Below, piece by piece: positions 59,200-64,000 of a stretch of 64,000 nucleotides of DNA. A program made the translations under genes and the position numbers. This DNA is from Naegleria gruberi (taxonomy: Eukaryota): NCBI GenBank assembly GCA_000004985.1, contig GG738890.1. The stretch is one strand, 5' to 3'. The notes beneath the pieces were generated by a model. The model did not search any database, had not been told where the DNA came from, and worked only from the letters and a program-made list of their open reading frames with translations. Within the stretch, counting starts at the first letter, position 1. Every line of letters starts with the position of its first letter.

Positions 59200-60162
59200 A
59201 TGCATCAAGATTGTTGGGCTGAAATTATTCCATTTTTGCAACCGATTGATGTTTTAGCTTCCCTCCTCACAATCAATCATAGCCTTCACAATTTAATTAA
59301 AAAATTGTGTATTGTTACTTTTGATAGAATTTCCCAATTTACAGCTGGTTGTTGTTCTGAGTTGAAAATTTCATTTAATTGTCATGATGATTTTGAAAAT
59401 ATTGAAAAGATTAATCATGATGTTCCAATATATGGGAATGTAAAATATTTCATCCGATTATACTTGTTAAAATTATCCTTAAAATTAGGAAATCAGGATC
59501 CTGAGAACGGAGATCTCAATGTAATTTCAGACATTTTGAATAGTTCAGAATTGAAATTGTTGAATTTCTATCGATCTGTCTTTACTGAATTTAAATTTCC
59601 ACAACAGAAAAATCCATCAACAATTGCTTATTGTGTGGTGGGAGAGGCTGGAGTTGGAACGTGCTACTTTTGTGAATTTGTTCGGTTTGGAAAAAAGTCA
59701 TATAGTTTGCGATATGGATTTGAATCCTTTTACAAAAAATTTACAATTCCAAACGAGATAGAATGGCAACAGCAAATTTGGATACCAGATGGATCTGAAA
59801 GGTTCTATTCGAAACAAGATGTTATCCAAAGATACAAAAAATATGATAAGAGCATGTATATTCTTCCATGTTTTTCAATGAATTATGAAACGTCATTTCA
59901 AACAGTAGGAGATTGGGTTTCAATTATTAGAGATACTCTTGGAATAATTGTTGGACTCAGTACTACAGATTTCTCACTAGATCCTCTTGAAGAAAAGAAA
60001 GTTAGTTTGAACGATGCTGTGAGGAAGGCATTCGAACTTGGATTTTCAGTATTTGTGGAATCTGATGACAATCACATATTTACTCCATTTTGGTTCATTC
60101 AATTGCAATCCACCTATTTCACTTTTAATAAGAATGATAATTGGGATTGTTCTCTAATGTAA
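59200..60162 (+). CDS. F-box-like N-terminus + degenerate Ras/Rab-like pseudoGTPase domain (paralog of 57797..58866)
   Basis: This 320-aa single ORF has an F-box-like N-terminus WAEIIPFLQPIDVLASLLTINHSLHNLI. The GTPase-like part is AYCVVGEAGVGTCYFCEFVRF (P-loop lysine lost), IWIPDGSERFYS (DTAGQE-like), IIVGLSTTDFSLD (NKxD lost) and GFSVFVESDDNHIFTPF (SAK-like). Confidence 0.5.
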   Translation: MHQDCWAEIIPFLQPIDVLASLLTINHSLHNLIKKLCIVTFDRISQFTAGCCSELKISFNCHDDFENIEKINHDVPIYGNVKYFIRLYLLKLSLKLGNQDPENGDLNVISDILNSSELKLLNFYRSVFTEFKFPQQKNPSTIAYCVVGEAGVGTCYFCEFVRFGKKSYSLRYGFESFYKKFTIPNEIEWQQQIWIPDGSERFYSKQDVIQRYKKYDKSMYILPCFSMNYETSFQTVGDWVSIIRDTLGIIVGLSTTDFSLDPLEEKKVSLNDAVRKAFELGFSVFVESDDNHIFTPFWFIQLQSTYFTFNKNDNWDCSLM

Positions 60163-60854
60163 AAGTAATAAATAGTAGATTAAATACGCAGTTTAGGAAC
60201 TTGTTTGATATTCCAAACCTAATTAGAGCAAAAGACTACAGCACCACAGGTTCCCAAGTTGTCTCCAACCTCAGTACTGATGTGGCTCGACGATGCTTAA
60301 CTTCTCAAATCGGACGGGATGAGGTGCATTCATCGTGATATGGCCGTAGCCATTCAATTCATTATCGCTATGAATATAAAGAATATGGAACTTCTTTTGC
60401 ATAACTTAATGCAACTTAGTAATACTTAAGGTGGTTAACCTATTAAGCTCTGTAAAAAGTTATCCTTGATCAATCGATTCTCACGACCAACTCAATACAA
60501 ACTTTTAGTAATTAAGTTATAACAATTTAGTAACATTATTTTTGGATATTCTTTTTAGTTTCATTGGACGGGAAGCCTGCCAGGAATATGACTGTGCATA
60601 CAGTTGTATGAACAGTGAAGGCAACGAAGACAGAATCTTGTTGGTTCAGGTTTTGTTTGAAGAAATTGATTAGGTTGATCACCCTTCTATAAATTGAATA
60701 TTTGACTGGTAAATTGATGGATGCAAGTTTTGGTTTCTCATTTTCTGATCAAATCGAAATTGAAACTTCAAACAGTAGCTGCCTTAATTTAACCATTCTT
60801 AGCTTAAAATAAAATTTACAAACCAAGAAAGATGAAATTCTAAATTGATATGCT

Positions 60855-60894
60855 CGATTTTTAAAAAAACAACCACTAGTTTTTTTAAAAATCG
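60855..60894. repeat. perfect 15-bp inverted repeat (hairpin) cgatttttaaaaaaa-[caaccactag]-tttttttaaaaatcg
   Basis: It was read directly: a 15/15 complementary stem with a 10-nt loop in the noncoding tract between the last host gene and the retroelement gag ORF. The stem is A/T-only apart from the terminal CG, so the chance of random occurrence is non-negligible. Confidence 0.4.
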
Positions 60895-61200
60895 CATGTA
60901 CTAAATAATTGTTCTGTACCATTACATTTTGTAGTTGAACATTTGCATTAATCACTTGATTATCATGGTTTTTGTTGTCTATTAAATTATGATATTTAAA
61001 AAATTCATAAACATAAATATTTTCAATATTAATGGCTAGTTGCGAGGAACGATGCAACGTTAGTATTTCGACAAATTGTAAACAATAAAATTGAGTTGAT
61101 AAATAATTTTTATGCTCAAAAAAATTAAGAAACATGGTAAACACACCAAGCAAAATCATTGCTGACACCCCTGGCAAAACAGTGACTGCTATCAGAAAAA

Positions 61201-62202
61201 TTATTTCTGCTAGTAAGTCAGCTGACAGCGTTTCAACTTACAAGTCTGGATATCCCAGCAATTGATGAAGGTAGTTCAGTGTCATCACAGACTAAACCTT
61301 TAGATAATAATCAAAGTGGTTCTGGAAATAACCCAGTTTCATCGCAAACTAAACCCTTGGATAACAACCAAGGTGGTTCTGAAAAGAACCTAGATGCTAT
61401 TCTTCACGCCATCACTTTATTGGGTGAGAGAATTAAACATCTTGAAGCAGTTCCACCCATCCTTCAAGAAGCTGATCAACTTGATGACAACTCTGATGAG
61501 GATTCTGCTGAAGATTCCACTGGTAAACATTGGGGTATGTCAACAATCAAGGAGATTAGAAGACACTACGAAGTTGGCGACAGATTAGCCGATGGAGATG
61601 TCTTAAGTTTTGTTTCAGCCAAAACTCTTCGTCGTTATCAAACCAATGATGCTCTTTTGAATAGAGTTCAATCATTAATGGCTAGATTTGAATCCGTTAT
61701 TCATAATCATCGTACTTATCCCCGTTTGCAAGAAATCCAATCAAAGGGCTTGCAAAAGATGATGGAAATGTTGCATTTGAAATCTAGACTACTCCATTTC
61801 GCTTTAAGTCACCCAATGAACGTTGCTAACATCATTGAAATCACAGAATTAGTTTATCTTCTCTGTGAGGTCGAGAAAATTTTCTTGGAAGAAGGTTTGT
61901 TTGATAGTAATTTTGAGGTTGCCACCAATTTCATTCAACCATTCGTACAGAGCAATACGTTCGCTGACATAACCGAAAAAGCACGTAGTAAGAAGAGAGA
62001 GAAAGCTGTTATCAAGACTGCTTTTGTTGGAAAGATTCAAAAACCCAACAAAATGAAAGAGAAGTTGAACAAACCCTACACTTCTCAACACAACAGCTAC
62101 TCTAAGTCTTACAAGAGTAACTCCAATTTTCAAAAATCAGGAGACTCAAAACCAAAGTACAACAACAACAACAGTGGAGGATCCTTCAGCAAGGACCTCT
62201 GA
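61201..62202 (+). CDS. retroelement ORF1 (gag-like), start codon unclear
   Basis: The frame is open from 61186 to the TGA at 62200..62202. The track ORF starts at a GTG (61279) and the first in-frame ATG lies about 110 codons in. An N-terminal 18-aa direct repeat VSSQTKPLDNNQ(S/G)GS occurs twice. The body is helical and K-rich with no zinc knuckle; the C-terminus is K/S/N-rich. Confidence 0.55.
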   Translation, partial: LFLLVSQLTAFQLTSLDIPAIDEGSSVSSQTKPLDNNQSGSGNNPVSSQTKPLDNNQGGSEKNLDAILHAITLLGERIKHLEAVPPILQEADQLDDNSDEDSAEDSTGKHWGMSTIKEIRRHYEVGDRLADGDVLSFVSAKTLRRYQTNDALLNRVQSLMARFESVIHNHRTYPRLQEIQSKGLQKMMEMLHLKSRLLHFALSHPMNVANIIEITELVYLLCEVEKIFLEEGLFDSNFEVATNFIQPFVQSNTFADITEKARSKKREKAVIKTAFVGKIQKPNKMKEKLNKPYTSQHNSYSKSYKSNSNFQKSGDSKPKYNNNNSGGSFSKDL

Positions 62203-64000
62203 CTTGGTGGGTTGTCGTCTTGGCAAGTTTGTAACTCAGTGGGAGAGTTACAACTTCAACCCATTCATAGTGGATTGGATTCGGAATGGAGTTCCAATCT
62301 ACTCAAATCCCACCCTTTGGAAAGAATTCAAGCAAAGGAAGAATTTCTCTCCAAAGGAGACCTCTTGGATGGATCAAGAAATCCAAGAGATGTTGAGTTC
62401 CAATGTCATCGAACTTGGAAACAAATCTACGGTACTCAATCCAATAAACATTGTCCCCAAGAAGGGCTCAGATCAGTTTCGTTTTATTCTGGATCTCAGG
62501 AAAGTAAACTTGGGGATCAAGGATACTTCGTTCAAGATGGACAACATTCAAAAATGTTTGAAGTTTGTTCAGAAAGGAATGTGGGCAACAAAGATAGACC
62601 TGAAGAAAGGCTATTTTCATGTTCCCATCAGAGAGAGTCATCGACACCTTCTGGGATTCAAGTACAAGAGCCTTGTATACCAATTCAAATGCCTTCCATT
62701 TGGTCTAAGTCAAGCTCCCAGAAACTTCACCAAGATAATGAAGGAACTAATGACCAAGTGGAGAAAGCAGGGCATCTTGGTATTCATTTACATCGACGAT
62801 ATATTGATTCTAAGCAACCACAAGGAAACTACCCAACAACACACAGACATAATCTTGAAAGACCTAGAAACATTAGGATGGATTATACAGAAGGAGAAAA
62901 GTGTGTTGACACCTTGTCAATGCATAGAATTTCTGGGTCTGGAATTGGATTTAATATCAGGTTTGGTAAAAATTCCACTCAACAAACAAGCCACTGCGAT
63001 AAAACTGATCCAAGACTTCTTGTCAGCGAACCAACTGAACAGATATGTAGCTTGCAAGAAAGTGGCTCAGTTTCTTGGGAAGATGGAATTTCTAACCCTA
63101 TCAAACCATTATTTTGCACCATTTCTGGCTCGTCTTCGAAAGGATATGGTGAAAGTAGTAAACGACAAATCCTGGCACGCATCGATGAGAATATTCAGAG
63201 GTGCAACCAAAGACCTCAAGATATTGAAAACTCTGATTCAGGAAAACAGTGGAGTTCCATTCGAACTGAACTCAATGAACCCGATTCGAGTGAATTCAGA
63301 TGCTTGCCCAACAGGTTATGGAATTCACGCAGAATCAACCATTACAATTGGAAGATTCAATTCCTCAGAGCACATCAATGTCAAAGAGTTAAAAACACTC
63401 CTCATTTTCTTCACACAAGCAGATCAATTAAACCTTTATGGTCCTGGTCAGGCATTCGAGATAAGAGGCGACAATGTAACAGCAATATCTTATATAAGGA
63501 GAGGTTACGGAGTCATCGAAGAACTCTCACAAATAGCCAGAGATCTCTACAAAATTCTAATGAGAAGAAAATGGTGGATTTCCAAAGTGATTTATATTCC
63601 CTCAAAGGAAAACATTTTGGCGGACAGACTGAGTCGTCTAACAGAATGGAAATCCTCTCAAGAACTATTGAATCTAGTTCAGACAGAATTTGGAGAACAC
63701 CACGTGGACAGATTCGCAACATTGGAATCAACCACAACAATTCAATTCAATTCATGGATAGAGAACGACACATTTCTGAACCCATGGGAACAAAATCTGA
63801 TGAGCTATTGTGCTCCTCCTCTGGGTCTGATATCTCAAGCTCTAGTTCACTGCATCAAGTCAGGAGCCAAAGCGACATTTGTGGTTCCAGATTGGCCCTC
63901 TTCGATATGGTTTCCAGTCTTGCTAAAGATATCAGAAAGAATGATAACTGTTTCGAGAAAGATGCTTATAATAACGCCCTTATCAGAGTTGCAAGACAAG
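62069..64000 (+). CDS. retroelement pol ORF (RT / RNase H / MT-like domain), +1 frame relative to gag, 3' partial
   Basis: The frame opens after the TGA at 62066..62068. It overlaps the gag frame by about 134 nt and runs without a stop to the end of the window. It is not listed in the ORF track because it has no stop inside the window. The first in-frame ATG is near 62360 (SWMDQEIQEM). The RT box C YIDD is at about 62789..62800. Confidence 0.8.

What the first reader, a model, noticed from the sequence alone, without database searches (positions are those of the whole stretch)
61201..64000. DIRS-type YR retrotransposon with gag and pol in overlapping +1 frames, at a sharp GC-content boundary
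The gene order is gag-like ORF directly followed by RT, then RNase H, then the DIRS/Ngaro-specific domain downstream of RNase H (FAT...F.SW...D...NPW......APP..LI...L.K.......VVP.WP...WF). There is no aspartic protease and no integrase before the window ends. This order is diagnostic of tyrosine-recombinase retroelements rather than LTR elements. Gag and pol overlap by about 134 nt with pol in the +1 frame. That implies programmed +1 frameshifting or internal initiation at the ATG near 62360. Base composition switches to visibly higher GC from about 60.2 kb onward. In D. discoideum, DIRS-1 copies cluster at centromeres. Whether this copy marks the edge of such a cluster cannot be seen in the window.
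Basis: partly seen in the sequence, partly recalled or inferred. Interest (0 to 1): 0.55.

Follow-up and report, generated by a model that had tools for sequence, protein, structure and literature searches.

The report
Naegleria DIRS1-like retrotransposon, 5' part
The last 3 kb of the window is the front part of a slightly damaged DIRS1-like "jumping gene" in the amoeba Naegleria gruberi, a known kind of element; its reverse-transcriptase gene is completely overlapped by a second open reading frame that continues from the coat-protein gene towards the recombinase gene.

Summary
Window 61038-64000 is the 5' 2.96 kb of a tyrosine-recombinase (DIRS-order) retrotransposon. The host is Naegleria gruberi NEG-M, not Dictyostelium.

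- **Gene content:** gag runs 61134-62202. Pol opens at 62069 in the +1 frame, overlaps gag by 134 nt and runs off the window. It carries RT, RNase H and the Dam-like MT domain. That domain places the element in the DIRS1/PAT group and excludes Ngaro.
- **No protease or integrase.** Close relatives have a tyrosine-recombinase ORF directly after pol (L086, 84% nt identity; L001; L002), and other N. gruberi copies have annotated YR genes.
- **GC step:** 33% to 39%, at about 61.1 kb. The bump at 60.2 kb is a 5S rRNA gene.
- **This copy is damaged:** a 2-nt deletion breaks gag after 43 codons.
after the gag UGA, the gag frame stays stop-free through all 599 visible pol codons (about 36 stops expected). 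In relatives it ends in the recombinase. This is the known DIRS1 "long ORF overlap".
- **Comparative pattern:** the gag stop is nearly always UGA, the recombinase frame is almost always open at the gag end, and the overlapped peptide is Ser-rich and hydrophobic-poor. This suggests Gag-Pol by +1 frameshift and Gag-linker-recombinase by readthrough. Both are inferred, not shown.

It is an ordinary element class with one moderately interesting expression puzzle.

The parts
61038..61133 (+). Left terminal region of the element (5' end, presumably left terminal repeat plus 5' leader). It starts AGTTGCGAGGAACG, that is GTT at 61039.
   Evidence: Similarity to the independent copy L086 begins abruptly at window 61038 = L086 642, and the sequences are unrelated upstream. 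The region is 97% identical over 91 nt, against 84% in the coding part. Whether it is an inverted repeat cannot be tested, because the right end lies outside the window.
61134..62202 (+). gag-like ORF1. ATG at 61134 (MVNTPSK...), then a 2-nt deletion near 61249 shifts the frame. Frame 0 stops at 61263-61265, and the rest of gag is open in frame 1 from 61186 to the TGA at 62200-62202.
   Evidence: Frames. Intact homologues P0128 and P0129 read MV(H/Q)TPS...SASKS...STYKSGYIPVTDNGSS straight through. The DNA alignment shows window GG--ATATCCC against L086 GGCTATATCCC. It is 31% identical to the ORF1 of L001 and 75-77% identical to N. gruberi and L086 gag proteins. There is no Pfam or PDB match, and the AF2 model is unusable at pLDDT 37.6. 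'gag' is therefore assigned by position and family only.
61277..61390 (+). In-frame 57-nt tandem duplication in the N-terminal low-complexity part of gag (VSSQTKPLDNNQ(S/G)GS x2).
   Evidence: the repeat finder family D1: two copies, 82% identical.
62069..62202 (+). gag/pol overlap (134 nt). Pol is open in the +1 frame, with no ATG in the pol frame here.
62197..62203 (+). CUC-UGA-C: the gag stop and candidate recoding site. A +1 shift would read ...D L then (U)GAC = D L V G C R L. Readthrough would continue into the gag-frame ORF.
   Evidence: The same context, CTC TGA CTT, occurs in L086. L001 has CAA TGA CTA; L002, L003 and L004 have AAA TGA C; N. fowleri has AAA TGA A. Conserved pol sequence begins right after the stop. 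Among 16 elements of this layout the stop is TGA in 15, followed by C in 10 and G in 6. In the same elements, pol stops are TGA 8, TAG 5, TAA 2, and YR stops are TAG 4, TAA 4, TGA 3. The recoding itself is inferred, not shown.
62201..64000 (+). pol ORF, cut by the window end. By comparison with L086 about 54 nt are missing. Domains: RT about 62453-62947 (YIDD at 62789-62800), RNase H about 63290-63630 (D63299, E63386, D63470, D63623), Dam-like MT about 63644-63949 (DRFA at 63707, APP at 63812-63820).
   Evidence: Pfam RVT_1 E 7e-26 and Dam E 1.9e-4. The profile matches Ty3 and CaMV RT-RNase H structures. Invariant residues. It is 91.5% aa identical to L086 pol.
62203..63999 (+). 'X': 599 stop-free codons in the gag frame that overlap all of pol. 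This is the 5' part of the recombinase (YR) ORF, whose catalytic domain would lie beyond the window.
   Evidence: 0 stops against 36 +/- 4 expected. The same holds in L086 (893+ codons), L001 (926), L002 (920) and L004 (785+). These ORFs end in Phage_integrase: L001 E 2.6e-10, L002 1.5e-5, L086 3e-4. X itself has no Pfam hit. Its aa sequence evolves fast: 69% identity to L086, against 91.5% for pol.

Best explanation
**What it is.** Window 61038-64000 is the 5' two-thirds of a DIRS-order retrotransposon of Naegleria gruberi. It belongs to the MT-bearing DIRS1-like group.

**Shown:**
- The left end lies at 61038/61039.
- gag runs 61134-62202 and is broken in this copy by a 2-nt deletion.
- pol (RT, RNase H, Dam-like MT) is in the +1 frame, and its conserved sequence starts at the gag stop.
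- A third ORF in the gag frame begins right after the gag UGA and stays open across all of pol. In close relatives it ends in a tyrosine recombinase.

**From knowledge of the family** (Cappello 1985 as cited in PMC7192593 and PMC3266345):
- The element is transcribed from its left terminal repeat.
- It is reverse-transcribed by its own RT/RNase H.
- Its ends are restored with the help of an internal complementary region.
- The recombinase inserts it without a target-site duplication.

**Inferred expression model:**
- Most ribosomes stop at CUC-UGA-C and make Gag.
- A fraction shift +1 at or just before the UGA and make Gag-Pol. No pol-frame AUG precedes the conserved pol N-terminus.
- Another fraction read through the UGA and translate the overlapped frame as a Ser-rich, poorly conserved linker, giving Gag-X-recombinase. 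This would deliver both enzymes as Gag fusions in an element that has no protease.

**Status of this copy.** With gag truncated after 43 codons, it is probably not autonomous.
For: **Identity**
- Pfam RVT_1 and Dam; RT-RNase H profile match to Ty3 and CaMV.
- Relatives carry YR directly after pol and have no protease or integrase.
- N. gruberi YR and gag paralogues lie on other scaffolds.
- Host identity comes from exact protein matches.

**Boundary and damage**
-.

**Frameshift**
- Invariant W14 and G30 lie upstream of the first pol-frame ATG, and there is no ATG in 62069-62368.
- 5 of 16 same-layout elements lack any pol-frame Met before the conserved motif.
- The gag stop is TGA in 15 of 16. 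In the same elements pol stops are TGA 8, TAG 5, TAA 2, and YR stops are TAG 4, TAA 4, TGA 3.

**Translated overlap**
- 0 stops against 29-37 expected in each of five family members, with 58-68 stops in the third frame.
- The decayed N. fowleri copy loses the open frame after 308 codons.
- In 4 distant elements, gag, X and YR form one uninterrupted ORF of 1335-1367 codons with the YR domain at its end.
- In 26 of 27 long-overlap loci with a visible gag end, the YR frame is already open at the gag stop.
- X is enriched in Ser (z +3.8 to +5.7) and depleted in hydrophobic residues (z -3.0 to -5.4) and aromatic residues (z -3.1 to -5.9), measured against a stop-free constrained synonymous shuffle.
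- The same frame of gag, YR and eight host genes shows Ser z <= +1.9.
- Synonymous-codon divergence between the window and L086 is somewhat lower in overlapped pol than in gag. Codon differences at identical residues are 0.277 against 0.370. At 4-fold sites the difference is 0.349 (n=209) against 0.459 (n=61).
Against: **Not visible here**
- The recombinase ORF, internal complementary region and right terminal repeat of this copy lie beyond 64000 and could not be fetched.
- No YR protein is annotated on this scaffold.
- DIRS1-like versus PAT-like therefore rests on relatives only.

**Weak points of the expression model**
- No slippery motif is shared. The codon before the stop is CUC, CAA, AAA, UCC, UUC, AAC and others.
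- No conserved RNA structure follows the stop.
- The base after the stop is G, a strong-termination context, in 6 of 16.
- L001, L002 and L004 have ATGA at the pol-stop/YR-Met junction, which would allow recombinase synthesis by termination-reinitiation without translating X. L086 does not have it.
- X shows no sequence-level constraint at high divergence. The identical-codon fraction is 0.43-0.48, the same as in gag and YR.
- There is no expression or proteomic evidence. 'gag' has no recognisable fold or domain.
Confidence: 0.85

Rival explanations
1. The overlapped gag-frame ORF is not translated as a Gag-linked linker. The recombinase is made on its own, for example by termination-reinitiation at the pol stop, by internal initiation, or by a -1 shift from pol. 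The long open frame is kept for some other reason or is only partly used.
For: ATGA (pol stop overlapping a YR-frame ATG) is present in L001, L002 and L004. The X amino-acid sequence is barely constrained. Half of the distant DIRS1-like loci manage with only a 230-440 nt pol/YR overlap. There is no shared readthrough or shift motif and no conserved RNA structure.
Against: This does not explain why the frame is stop-free from the very first codon after the gag stop in all six family members and in 16 further elements. It also does not explain why gag and YR are one uninterrupted ORF in four elements. The first ATG in the window's X frame is about 117 codons in. ATGA is absent from the closest relative, L086 (TAA stop). 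The compositional shift of X is specific to the overlapped region.
Confidence: 0.35
2. Pol is made by independent initiation (AUG or non-AUG, leaky scanning or reinitiation) rather than by +1 frameshifting from gag.
For: L001 and L004 have a pol-frame ATG 10-14 codons before the gag stop, and 11 of 16 same-layout elements have some pol-frame Met upstream of the conserved motif. No common slippery sequence exists.
Against: The window, L086, L023, L036, L039 and L083 have no pol-frame Met before the invariant N-terminal residues. The positions of Met are not conserved. The gag stop is almost always UGA and lies 16-175 nt before the conserved pol motif.
Confidence: 0.25
3. The element is PAT-like (split direct repeats) rather than DIRS1-like (inverted terminal repeats plus internal complementary region).
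For: Both groups share gag, RT-RH-MT and YR (PMC3266345). The termini of this family were not seen. Only the 96-nt left end is visible, and it has no partner in the window.
Against: Distant elements with the same ORF layout have clear inverted terminal repeats: L060 95 nt at 100%, L030 132 nt at 94%, L067 92 nt at 99%, L035 123 nt at 100%, and L025 with an extra internal inverted match. The element begins with GTT, as many DIRS1-like elements do (NTT rule, PMC3266345). Long ORF overlap is described as a DIRS1-like trait (PMC3266345).
Confidence: 0.1
4. It is an LTR (Ty3/gypsy-type) retrotransposon whose protease and integrase lie outside the window.
For: The RT-RNase H is most similar to Ty3 and caulimovirus enzymes among solved structures.
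Against: There is no protease between gag and RT. A Dam-like MT domain follows RNase H. Relatives go straight from pol to a Phage_integrase-type ORF, and their contigs of 3.4-4.4 kb have no room for protease or integrase.
Confidence: 0.01

Closest known systems
DIRS-1 of Dictyostelium discoideum and the DIRS1-like superfamily (Cappello 1985; Piednoel et al. 2011, PMC3266345)
   Same: Three ORFs: gag, pol = RT-RNase H-MT, and a tyrosine recombinase. There is no protease or DDE integrase. [quoted passage not shown] The first trinucleotide is of the NTT type (GTT).
   Different: The host is a heterolobosean, where DIRS1-like presence was called uncertain in 2011 because the copies had frameshifts. 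Pol is only 26-31% identical to the distant DIRS1-like loci sampled here. Inverted repeats and the internal complementary region are unverified for this family. The left non-coding end is only 96 nt. The gag and recombinase frames coincide and are separated by one UGA. I did not find that layout described in the papers I could read.
PAT-like elements (PAT, kangaroo, TOC)
   Same: MT-bearing YR retrotransposons with a similar gene set.
   Different: They have split direct repeats, and sometimes an inverted recombinase gene (PMC3266345). Here the recombinase frame is co-oriented, and same-layout relatives carry inverted terminal repeats.
Ngaro and VIPER elements
   Same: Tyrosine-recombinase retrotransposons with gag and RT-RNase H.
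   Different: They lack the MT domain and usually lack ORF overlaps (PMC3266345). Here MT is present and the overlap is complete.
Recoding at stop codons (from my own knowledge, not tested here): +1 frameshifting at antizyme UCC-UGA-U, E. coli prfB CUU-UGA-C and Euplotes AAA-UAA/UAG; +1 shifting in Ty1 and Ty3; UGA/UAG readthrough for Gag-Pol in gammaretroviruses
   Same: A UGA followed by C at the gag/pol junction, with the downstream frame at +1. AAA-UGA occurs in four family members (L002, L003, L004 and the N. fowleri copy L005). A second product would arise by reading through the same stop.
   Different: No shared shift heptamer and no conserved downstream pseudoknot or hairpin. One stop codon would serve both a frameshift and a readthrough product, and the readthrough product would carry a roughly 600-residue overprinted linker.
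Ty3/gypsy LTR retrotransposons
   Same: RT-RNase H homology (4ol8 E 1e-40).
   Different: No protease, no DDE integrase and no chromodomain. MT and YR are present instead.

Membership tests
DIRS order (tyrosine-recombinase retrotransposons) | Reverse transcriptase plus RNase H of the Ty3/gypsy-related type | tested here: met
   Pfam RVT_1 E 7e-26. The family profile matches Ty3 and CaMV RT-RNase H over profile positions 45-489. YIDD and the D-E-D-D residues were located.
DIRS order (tyrosine-recombinase retrotransposons) | Tyrosine recombinase ORF instead of a DDE integrase | tested here: inconclusive
   The window ends about 54 nt before the pol stop, so the catalytic domain of this copy is not visible. 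The ORF that leads to it is open to the last codon of the window. Relatives have Phage_integrase directly after pol: L086 (84% nt identity) E 3e-4 on a truncated domain, L001 2.6e-10, L002 1.5e-5. N. gruberi YR paralogues are 80-86% identical to L086's, but none is annotated on this scaffold.
DIRS order (tyrosine-recombinase retrotransposons) | No aspartic protease between gag and RT | tested here: met
   There are no RVP-type hits. Conserved pol starts 16 nt after the gag stop.
DIRS1-like superfamily | Dam-like methyltransferase (MT) domain after RNase H | tested here: met
   PF05869: E 1.9e-4 in the window (21.6 bits, below the 28.1-bit cut-off), 1.2e-4 in L086 and 5e-5 in L001. It is also precomputed on many homologues. 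The conserved DRFA...NPW...APP...VVPxWP motifs are present.
DIRS1-like superfamily | Inverted terminal repeats | not testable with these tools
   Only the left end (61038-61133) is in the window, and the scaffold could not be fetched. Distant same-layout loci do have ITRs.
DIRS1-like superfamily | Internal complementary region near the 3' end, complementary to the element termini | not testable with these tools
   It would lie beyond 64000. No complement of the left end was found in L086 or L001-L004, whose contigs stop before or at that region.
DIRS1-like superfamily | Long overlap of the recombinase ORF with pol (present in about half of described members) | tested here: met
   599 stop-free codons overlap all visible pol, against 36 +/- 4 stops expected. 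The same holds in five relatives.
Ngaro | No MT domain, ORFs usually not overlapping, split direct repeats | tested here: not met
   The MT domain is present and the overlap is complete. Repeats were not testable.
PAT-like | Split direct repeats instead of inverted terminal repeats | not testable with these tools
   The right end was not available. No direct repeat of the left end occurs within the window.
LTR retrotransposon (Ty3/gypsy) | Protease, DDE integrase and direct long terminal repeats | tested here: not met
   None of these is found in the window or in the near-complete relatives.

The most novel reading that the evidence does not exclude
In this and many other DIRS1-like elements, the end of gag would be a three-way translational switch. 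Termination would give Gag. A +1 frameshift at or near the UGA would give Gag-Pol. Readthrough of the same UGA (or no stop at all in some elements) would give Gag-X-recombinase, where X is a roughly 600-residue Ser-rich linker overprinted on the whole of pol and selected only to be open and non-hydrophobic. The long-known but unexplained 'long ORF overlap' of DIRS1-like elements would then be the way a protease-less retroelement delivers two enzymes as separate Gag fusions.
Probability: 0.3. Interest if true: 0.65.

Novelty: new member of a known kind. Interest (0 to 1): 0.38.

Why it matters
**As a genome feature it is ordinary:** one slightly decayed copy of a low-copy DIRS1-like family in N. 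gruberi.

It does settle a small point. Piednoel et al. [quoted passage not shown] Here the pol and overlapping frames are intact, a 5' boundary is defined, and sister copies have intact gag and recombinase genes.

**The wider interest lies in the expression puzzle.** How DIRS elements translate three overlapping ORFs from one mRNA is not established in the literature I could read. The comparative regularities found here make a concrete recoding model directly testable with reporters, ribosome profiling or the Dictyostelium DIRS-1 retrotransposition assay (PMC7192593):
- the recombinase frame is open at the gag stop in 26 of 27 long-overlap loci;
- the gag stop is UGA in 15 of 16 same-layout elements;
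- gag and the recombinase are fused into one ORF in some elements;
- the overlapped peptide has a biased composition.

Tried and rejected
1. **Extending the sequence past 64000.** Exact-protein look-ups of the neighbouring Ras-like gene and of the annotated gag (P0126, P0127) are not in the positional index. A viral-contig scan found nothing. The right end, the internal complementary region and the recombinase of this copy therefore remain unseen.

2. **Self-alignment for terminal repeats.** Neither 60000-64000 nor the rest of the window holds a partner repeat or a second copy.

3. **Intron hypothesis for gag.** GTAAGT at 61213 with CAG acceptors at 61258 or 61279 would join ATG 61134 to the gag frame. 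I rejected this. Intact homologues encode the supposed intron as conserved protein, and the DNA alignment shows a plain 2-nt deletion. The N. gruberi gene model P0127, with a different 5' exon, is likewise an artefact of that deletion.

4. **Stimulatory RNA structure 3' of the gag stop.** RNAalifold finds only a weak hairpin formed by conserved DWI and PI codons, about 90 nt downstream of the stop and without real covariation. Single-sequence folds have z-scores from +0.3 to -3.2, and L086 breaks a pair of the window's hairpin without compensation. Inconclusive.

5. **Sequence-level constraint on the overlapped frame at high divergence.** The identical-codon fraction is no higher than in gag or YR. 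Only the closer pair, window against L086, shows a modest drop in synonymous change.

6. **Targeting of Pol III genes.** The 5S gene lies 686 nt from the element end. There is no 5S or tRNA gene beside L086, L001-L004 or the N. fowleri copy.

7. **Fold of gag.** The AF2 model on six close homologues has pLDDT 37.6 and is unusable, so no fold search was run. A PDB profile search found nothing below E 0.4.

8. **N. fowleri terminal repeats.** There is only a 28-nt, 75% inverted match, which is not convincing.

9. **Alternative genetic code (UGA as sense).** I rejected this. There is no in-frame TGA inside any of the long ORFs, and host ORFs are delimited normally.


Full report
**1. What is in the sequence**

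Translating 60001-64000 in three frames shows three things. A gag-frame ORF is open 61186-62199, with stop TGA at 62200-62202. A second ORF in the +1 frame is open from 62069 to the last base of the window (644 codons). The minus strand holds only short ORFs.

Pfam finds RVT_1 (E 7e-26, aa 129-293 of the +1 ORF) and the Dam DNA-methyltransferase family (E 1.9e-4, aa 526-627). It finds nothing for the gag ORF or for the third frame, and no protease or integrase. The Dam score of 21.6 bits is below the 28.1-bit cut-off.

A profile of 12 pol proteins (A3) matches the RT-RNase H structures of CaMV (8r0s, 2e-47) and Ty3 (4ol8, 1e-40) through the RNase H domain. The invariant D367, E396, D424 and D475 map to 63299, 63386, 63470 and 63623, and YIDD maps to 62789-62800.

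**2. Host and neighbourhood**

Five window ORFs are exact matches to Naegleria gruberi NEG-M proteins on one 350,200-bp scaffold. The host is thus a heterolobosean, not Dictyostelium. The rest of the window is gene-dense and contains no second copy or fragment of the element.

Rfam finds a full-length 5S rRNA gene at 60233-60351 on the minus strand (105 bits). It is 51% GC and explains the 'GC rise at 60.2 kb'. The 686 nt between it and the element are only 28% GC. The true step is at the start of gag. The element is 39.2% GC, against 33.5 +/- 1.2% for host stretches of the same size, whose maximum is 36.2%. Relatives of the element are 36-40% GC as well, so the composition belongs to the element.

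**3. Relatives, boundary and state of this copy**

A protein search with pol found four metagenomic relatives at 52-57% identity, fetched as loci L001-L004, and a decayed N. fowleri copy, L005.

A search with gag found several further sequences:
- the annotated gag of this very copy (P0127);
- gag paralogues on two other N. gruberi scaffolds (P0129, P0130, P0131, P0133; 76-77% identity);
- P0128, on contig L086.

L086 is 84% identical in DNA to window 61355-64000 and 97% identical over the 91 nt from window 61038. Upstream of 61038 (L086 642) the two sequences are unrelated. That breakpoint defines the left end of the element at 61038/61039, which begins GTT, as many DIRS1-like elements do according to PMC3266345. 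It leaves a 96-nt non-coding left end before the gag ATG at 61134.

The intact homologues start MV(H/Q)TPS... and read ...STYKSGYIPVTDNGSS... without interruption. The window has GG--ATATCCC where L086 has GGCTATATCCC. This 2-nt deletion near 61249 ends the ATG-started frame at 61263-61265. The copy therefore has a broken gag, which fits the remark of Piednoel et al. 2011 that N. gruberi copies carry frameshifts. I had first considered a short intron, and this evidence refutes it. The database gene model P0127 papers over the deletion with an invented 5' exon.

**4. Class**

L001 and L002 have a 302-306-residue gene with a Phage_integrase hit directly after pol. L086 has the same, truncated by the contig end. 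Their 3.4-4.4-kb contigs leave no room for a protease or integrase.

Searching with the L086 recombinase finds N. gruberi proteins 86% and 80% identical, on scaffolds of 371,401 and 613,270 bp. Intact recombinase genes therefore exist in the family, although none is annotated on the window's scaffold.

The MT domain excludes Ngaro and VIPER (PMC3266345). DIRS1-like and PAT-like cannot be separated without the right end. However, distant elements with the same ORF layout carry inverted terminal repeats of 92-132 nt. DIRS elements have been reported by repeat annotation in N. lovaniensis (PMC6125883) and tentatively in N. gruberi (PMC3266345).

**5. The third frame**

Synonymous shuffling of pol predicts 29-37 stops in the gag frame (minimum 16 in 2000 shuffles). 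In contrast, 0 stops are observed in the window and in each of L001-L004, and the remaining frame has 58-68 stops. L086 is also open, for 893+ codons. In the relatives this ORF runs for 920-926 codons and ends in the recombinase. The decayed N. fowleri copy keeps it open for only 308 codons. This is the 'long ORF overlap' that PMC3266345 reports in half of the DIRS1-like elements, with the catalytic domain in the non-overlapping 3' end.

The peptide it encodes (X) has no Pfam hit and evolves fast. It is 69% identical between the window and L086, against 91.5% for pol and 81% for gag. It is 31% identical between the window and L001, against 58% for pol. At high divergence the codon identity at identical pol residues is no higher than in gag or in the recombinase. 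In the closer pair, synonymous change is moderately lower in overlapped pol. Codon differences at identical residues are 0.277 against 0.370. At 4-fold sites the difference is 0.349 against 0.459.

Against a synonymous shuffle constrained to stay stop-free, X is enriched in Ser (z +3.8 to +5.7) and depleted in hydrophobic residues (z -3.0 to -5.4) and aromatic residues (z -3.1 to -5.9). This holds in the four family members tested, with similar trends in distant elements. The same frame of gag, of the recombinase and of eight host genes shows no such Ser excess (z <= +1.9). The K+R and D+E shifts are general codon-context effects. The frame thus behaves like a translated spacer that is selected for openness and composition, not for sequence.

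**6. Frame relations across DIRS1-like elements**

One metagenome scan returned 80 distant loci at 26-31% pol identity. Of 71 evaluable loci, 31 have a long overlap (1.7-3.3 kb) and 32 a short one, typically 230-440 nt. The long-overlap loci fall into these groups:
- 12 have the window's layout: gag and the recombinase ORF in one frame, separated by a single stop, with pol at +1.
- 4 have no stop at all. A single ORF of 1335-1367 codons carries the recombinase domains at its end, with pol embedded at +1.
- 11 have gag in the third frame. In 10 of these the recombinase frame opens 151-283 nt before the gag stop.
- 4 are incomplete at the 5' end.

So in 26 of the 27 cases with a visible gag end, the recombinase frame is already open where gag ends.

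In the 16 elements of the window's layout, family members included, the gag stop is TGA in 15 and TAG in 1. It is followed by C in 10 and by G in 6, and it lies 16-175 nt before the conserved GGRL...W motif of pol. The pol and recombinase ORFs of the same elements end in a mixture of all three stops. These counts are not corrected for relatedness.

**7. How it probably works**

Established for the class (PMC7192593, PMC3266345):
- transcription from the left terminal repeat;
- reverse transcription by RT/RNase H;
- restoration of the ends through the internal complementary region;
- insertion by the tyrosine recombinase without target duplication.

For expression, two things are shown: the ORF geometry, and the absence of any pol-frame ATG before invariant pol residues. 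In the window that means no ATG in 62069-62368, with W14 at 62240 and G30 at 62288.

I infer three outcomes at the gag stop. Gag terminates at CUC-UGA-C. A minority of ribosomes shift +1 at or near the stop, which would read ...K D L then D L V G C R L and give Gag-Pol. Another minority read through the UGA and give Gag-X-recombinase.

This would resemble +1 shifting at stop codons in antizyme, prfB and Euplotes, and UGA readthrough in retroviruses. Those parallels come from my own knowledge and were not tested here.

Several observations count against the model:
- There is no shared slippery codon.
- There is no conserved downstream RNA structure.
- G follows the stop in 6 of 16 elements.
- An ATGA stop-start overlap at the pol/recombinase junction in L001, L002 and L004 could support reinitiation instead, although L086 lacks it.

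I give the readthrough-linker part about 0.3-0.45 and the +1 frameshift about 0.6-0.7.

**8. Verdict**

This copy is truncated by the window and disabled in gag. The GC remark needs correcting because of the 5S gene and the true boundary at 61.1 kb.

The added value lies in three things: the defined left end, the missed overlapping ORF, and a testable model for how such elements express two enzymes without a protease.

Noticed in passing
window 60233-60351 (minus strand): A full-length 5S rRNA gene (Rfam RF00001, 105.4 bits, E 4e-23, 51% GC). It is the only gathering-level Rfam hit in the 64 kb. It lies between a Ras-like gene and the retrotransposon, 686 nt from the element's left end, on the gene's 5' side.
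   Followed up: partly
window 61033-61080 and 61186-62202 (database protein P0127): The N. gruberi gene model for this gag (344 aa, 'predicted protein') starts MASCEERCNVSISTN. That peptide is read from the element's non-coding left end and spliced into the gag frame. It looks like a prediction artefact that bypasses the 2-nt deletion near 61249.
   Followed up: yes
window 61277-61390: A 57-nt in-frame tandem duplication (82% identical) in the low-complexity N-terminal part of gag. L086 does not have it in this form.
   Followed up: no
window 60855-60894: A perfect 16-nt palindrome arm pair (CGATTTTTAAAAAAAC / GTTTTTTTAAAAATCG, 8-nt spacer) in the AT-rich spacer between the 5S gene and the element. 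Its function is unknown.
   Followed up: no
window 59200-60162 (+): An intronless 320-aa ORF, identical to N. gruberi EFC40711.1, with a weak Ras-family hit only in its C-terminal half (Pfam E 1.8e-6). It is the last host gene before the 5S gene.
   Followed up: no
L001 3061-3064, L002 2813-2816, L004 2913-2916: In three relatives the pol stop TGA overlaps an ATG of the recombinase frame (ATGA), a layout typical of termination-reinitiation. The closest relative, L086, ends pol with TAA and lacks it.
   Followed up: partly
L018 183-4253, L025 788-4879, L030 1639-5643, L067 576-4676: Distant DIRS1-like elements in which gag, the pol-overlapping stretch and the recombinase form one uninterrupted ORF of 1335-1367 codons, with pol embedded in the +1 frame. 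L025, L030 and L067 also show inverted terminal repeats.
   Followed up: partly
L050 442-3504 and L074 653-3394: Two loci where gag is in the same frame as pol, separated by a single stop (a readthrough-type gag-pol), while the recombinase frame opens inside gag. So all three frame permutations occur among DIRS1-like elements.
   Followed up: no
N. gruberi scaffold of 196,593 bp (proteins P0129, P0130, P0133): Three gag-derived gene models of this family lie on one scaffold, which may indicate several copies close together. The DNA could not be fetched.
   Followed up: no
L086 71-682: A 204-codon ORF in the DNA flanking the L086 copy runs 40 nt into the element's left end. It has no Pfam hit and is probably a host ORF interrupted or extended by the insertion.
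   Followed up: no
window 61351-61395 (minus strand): A sub-threshold Rfam match to the histone 3' UTR stem-loop (24.7 bits against 34 gathering, E 0.0013) inside the gag tandem repeat. Most likely chance.
   Followed up: no
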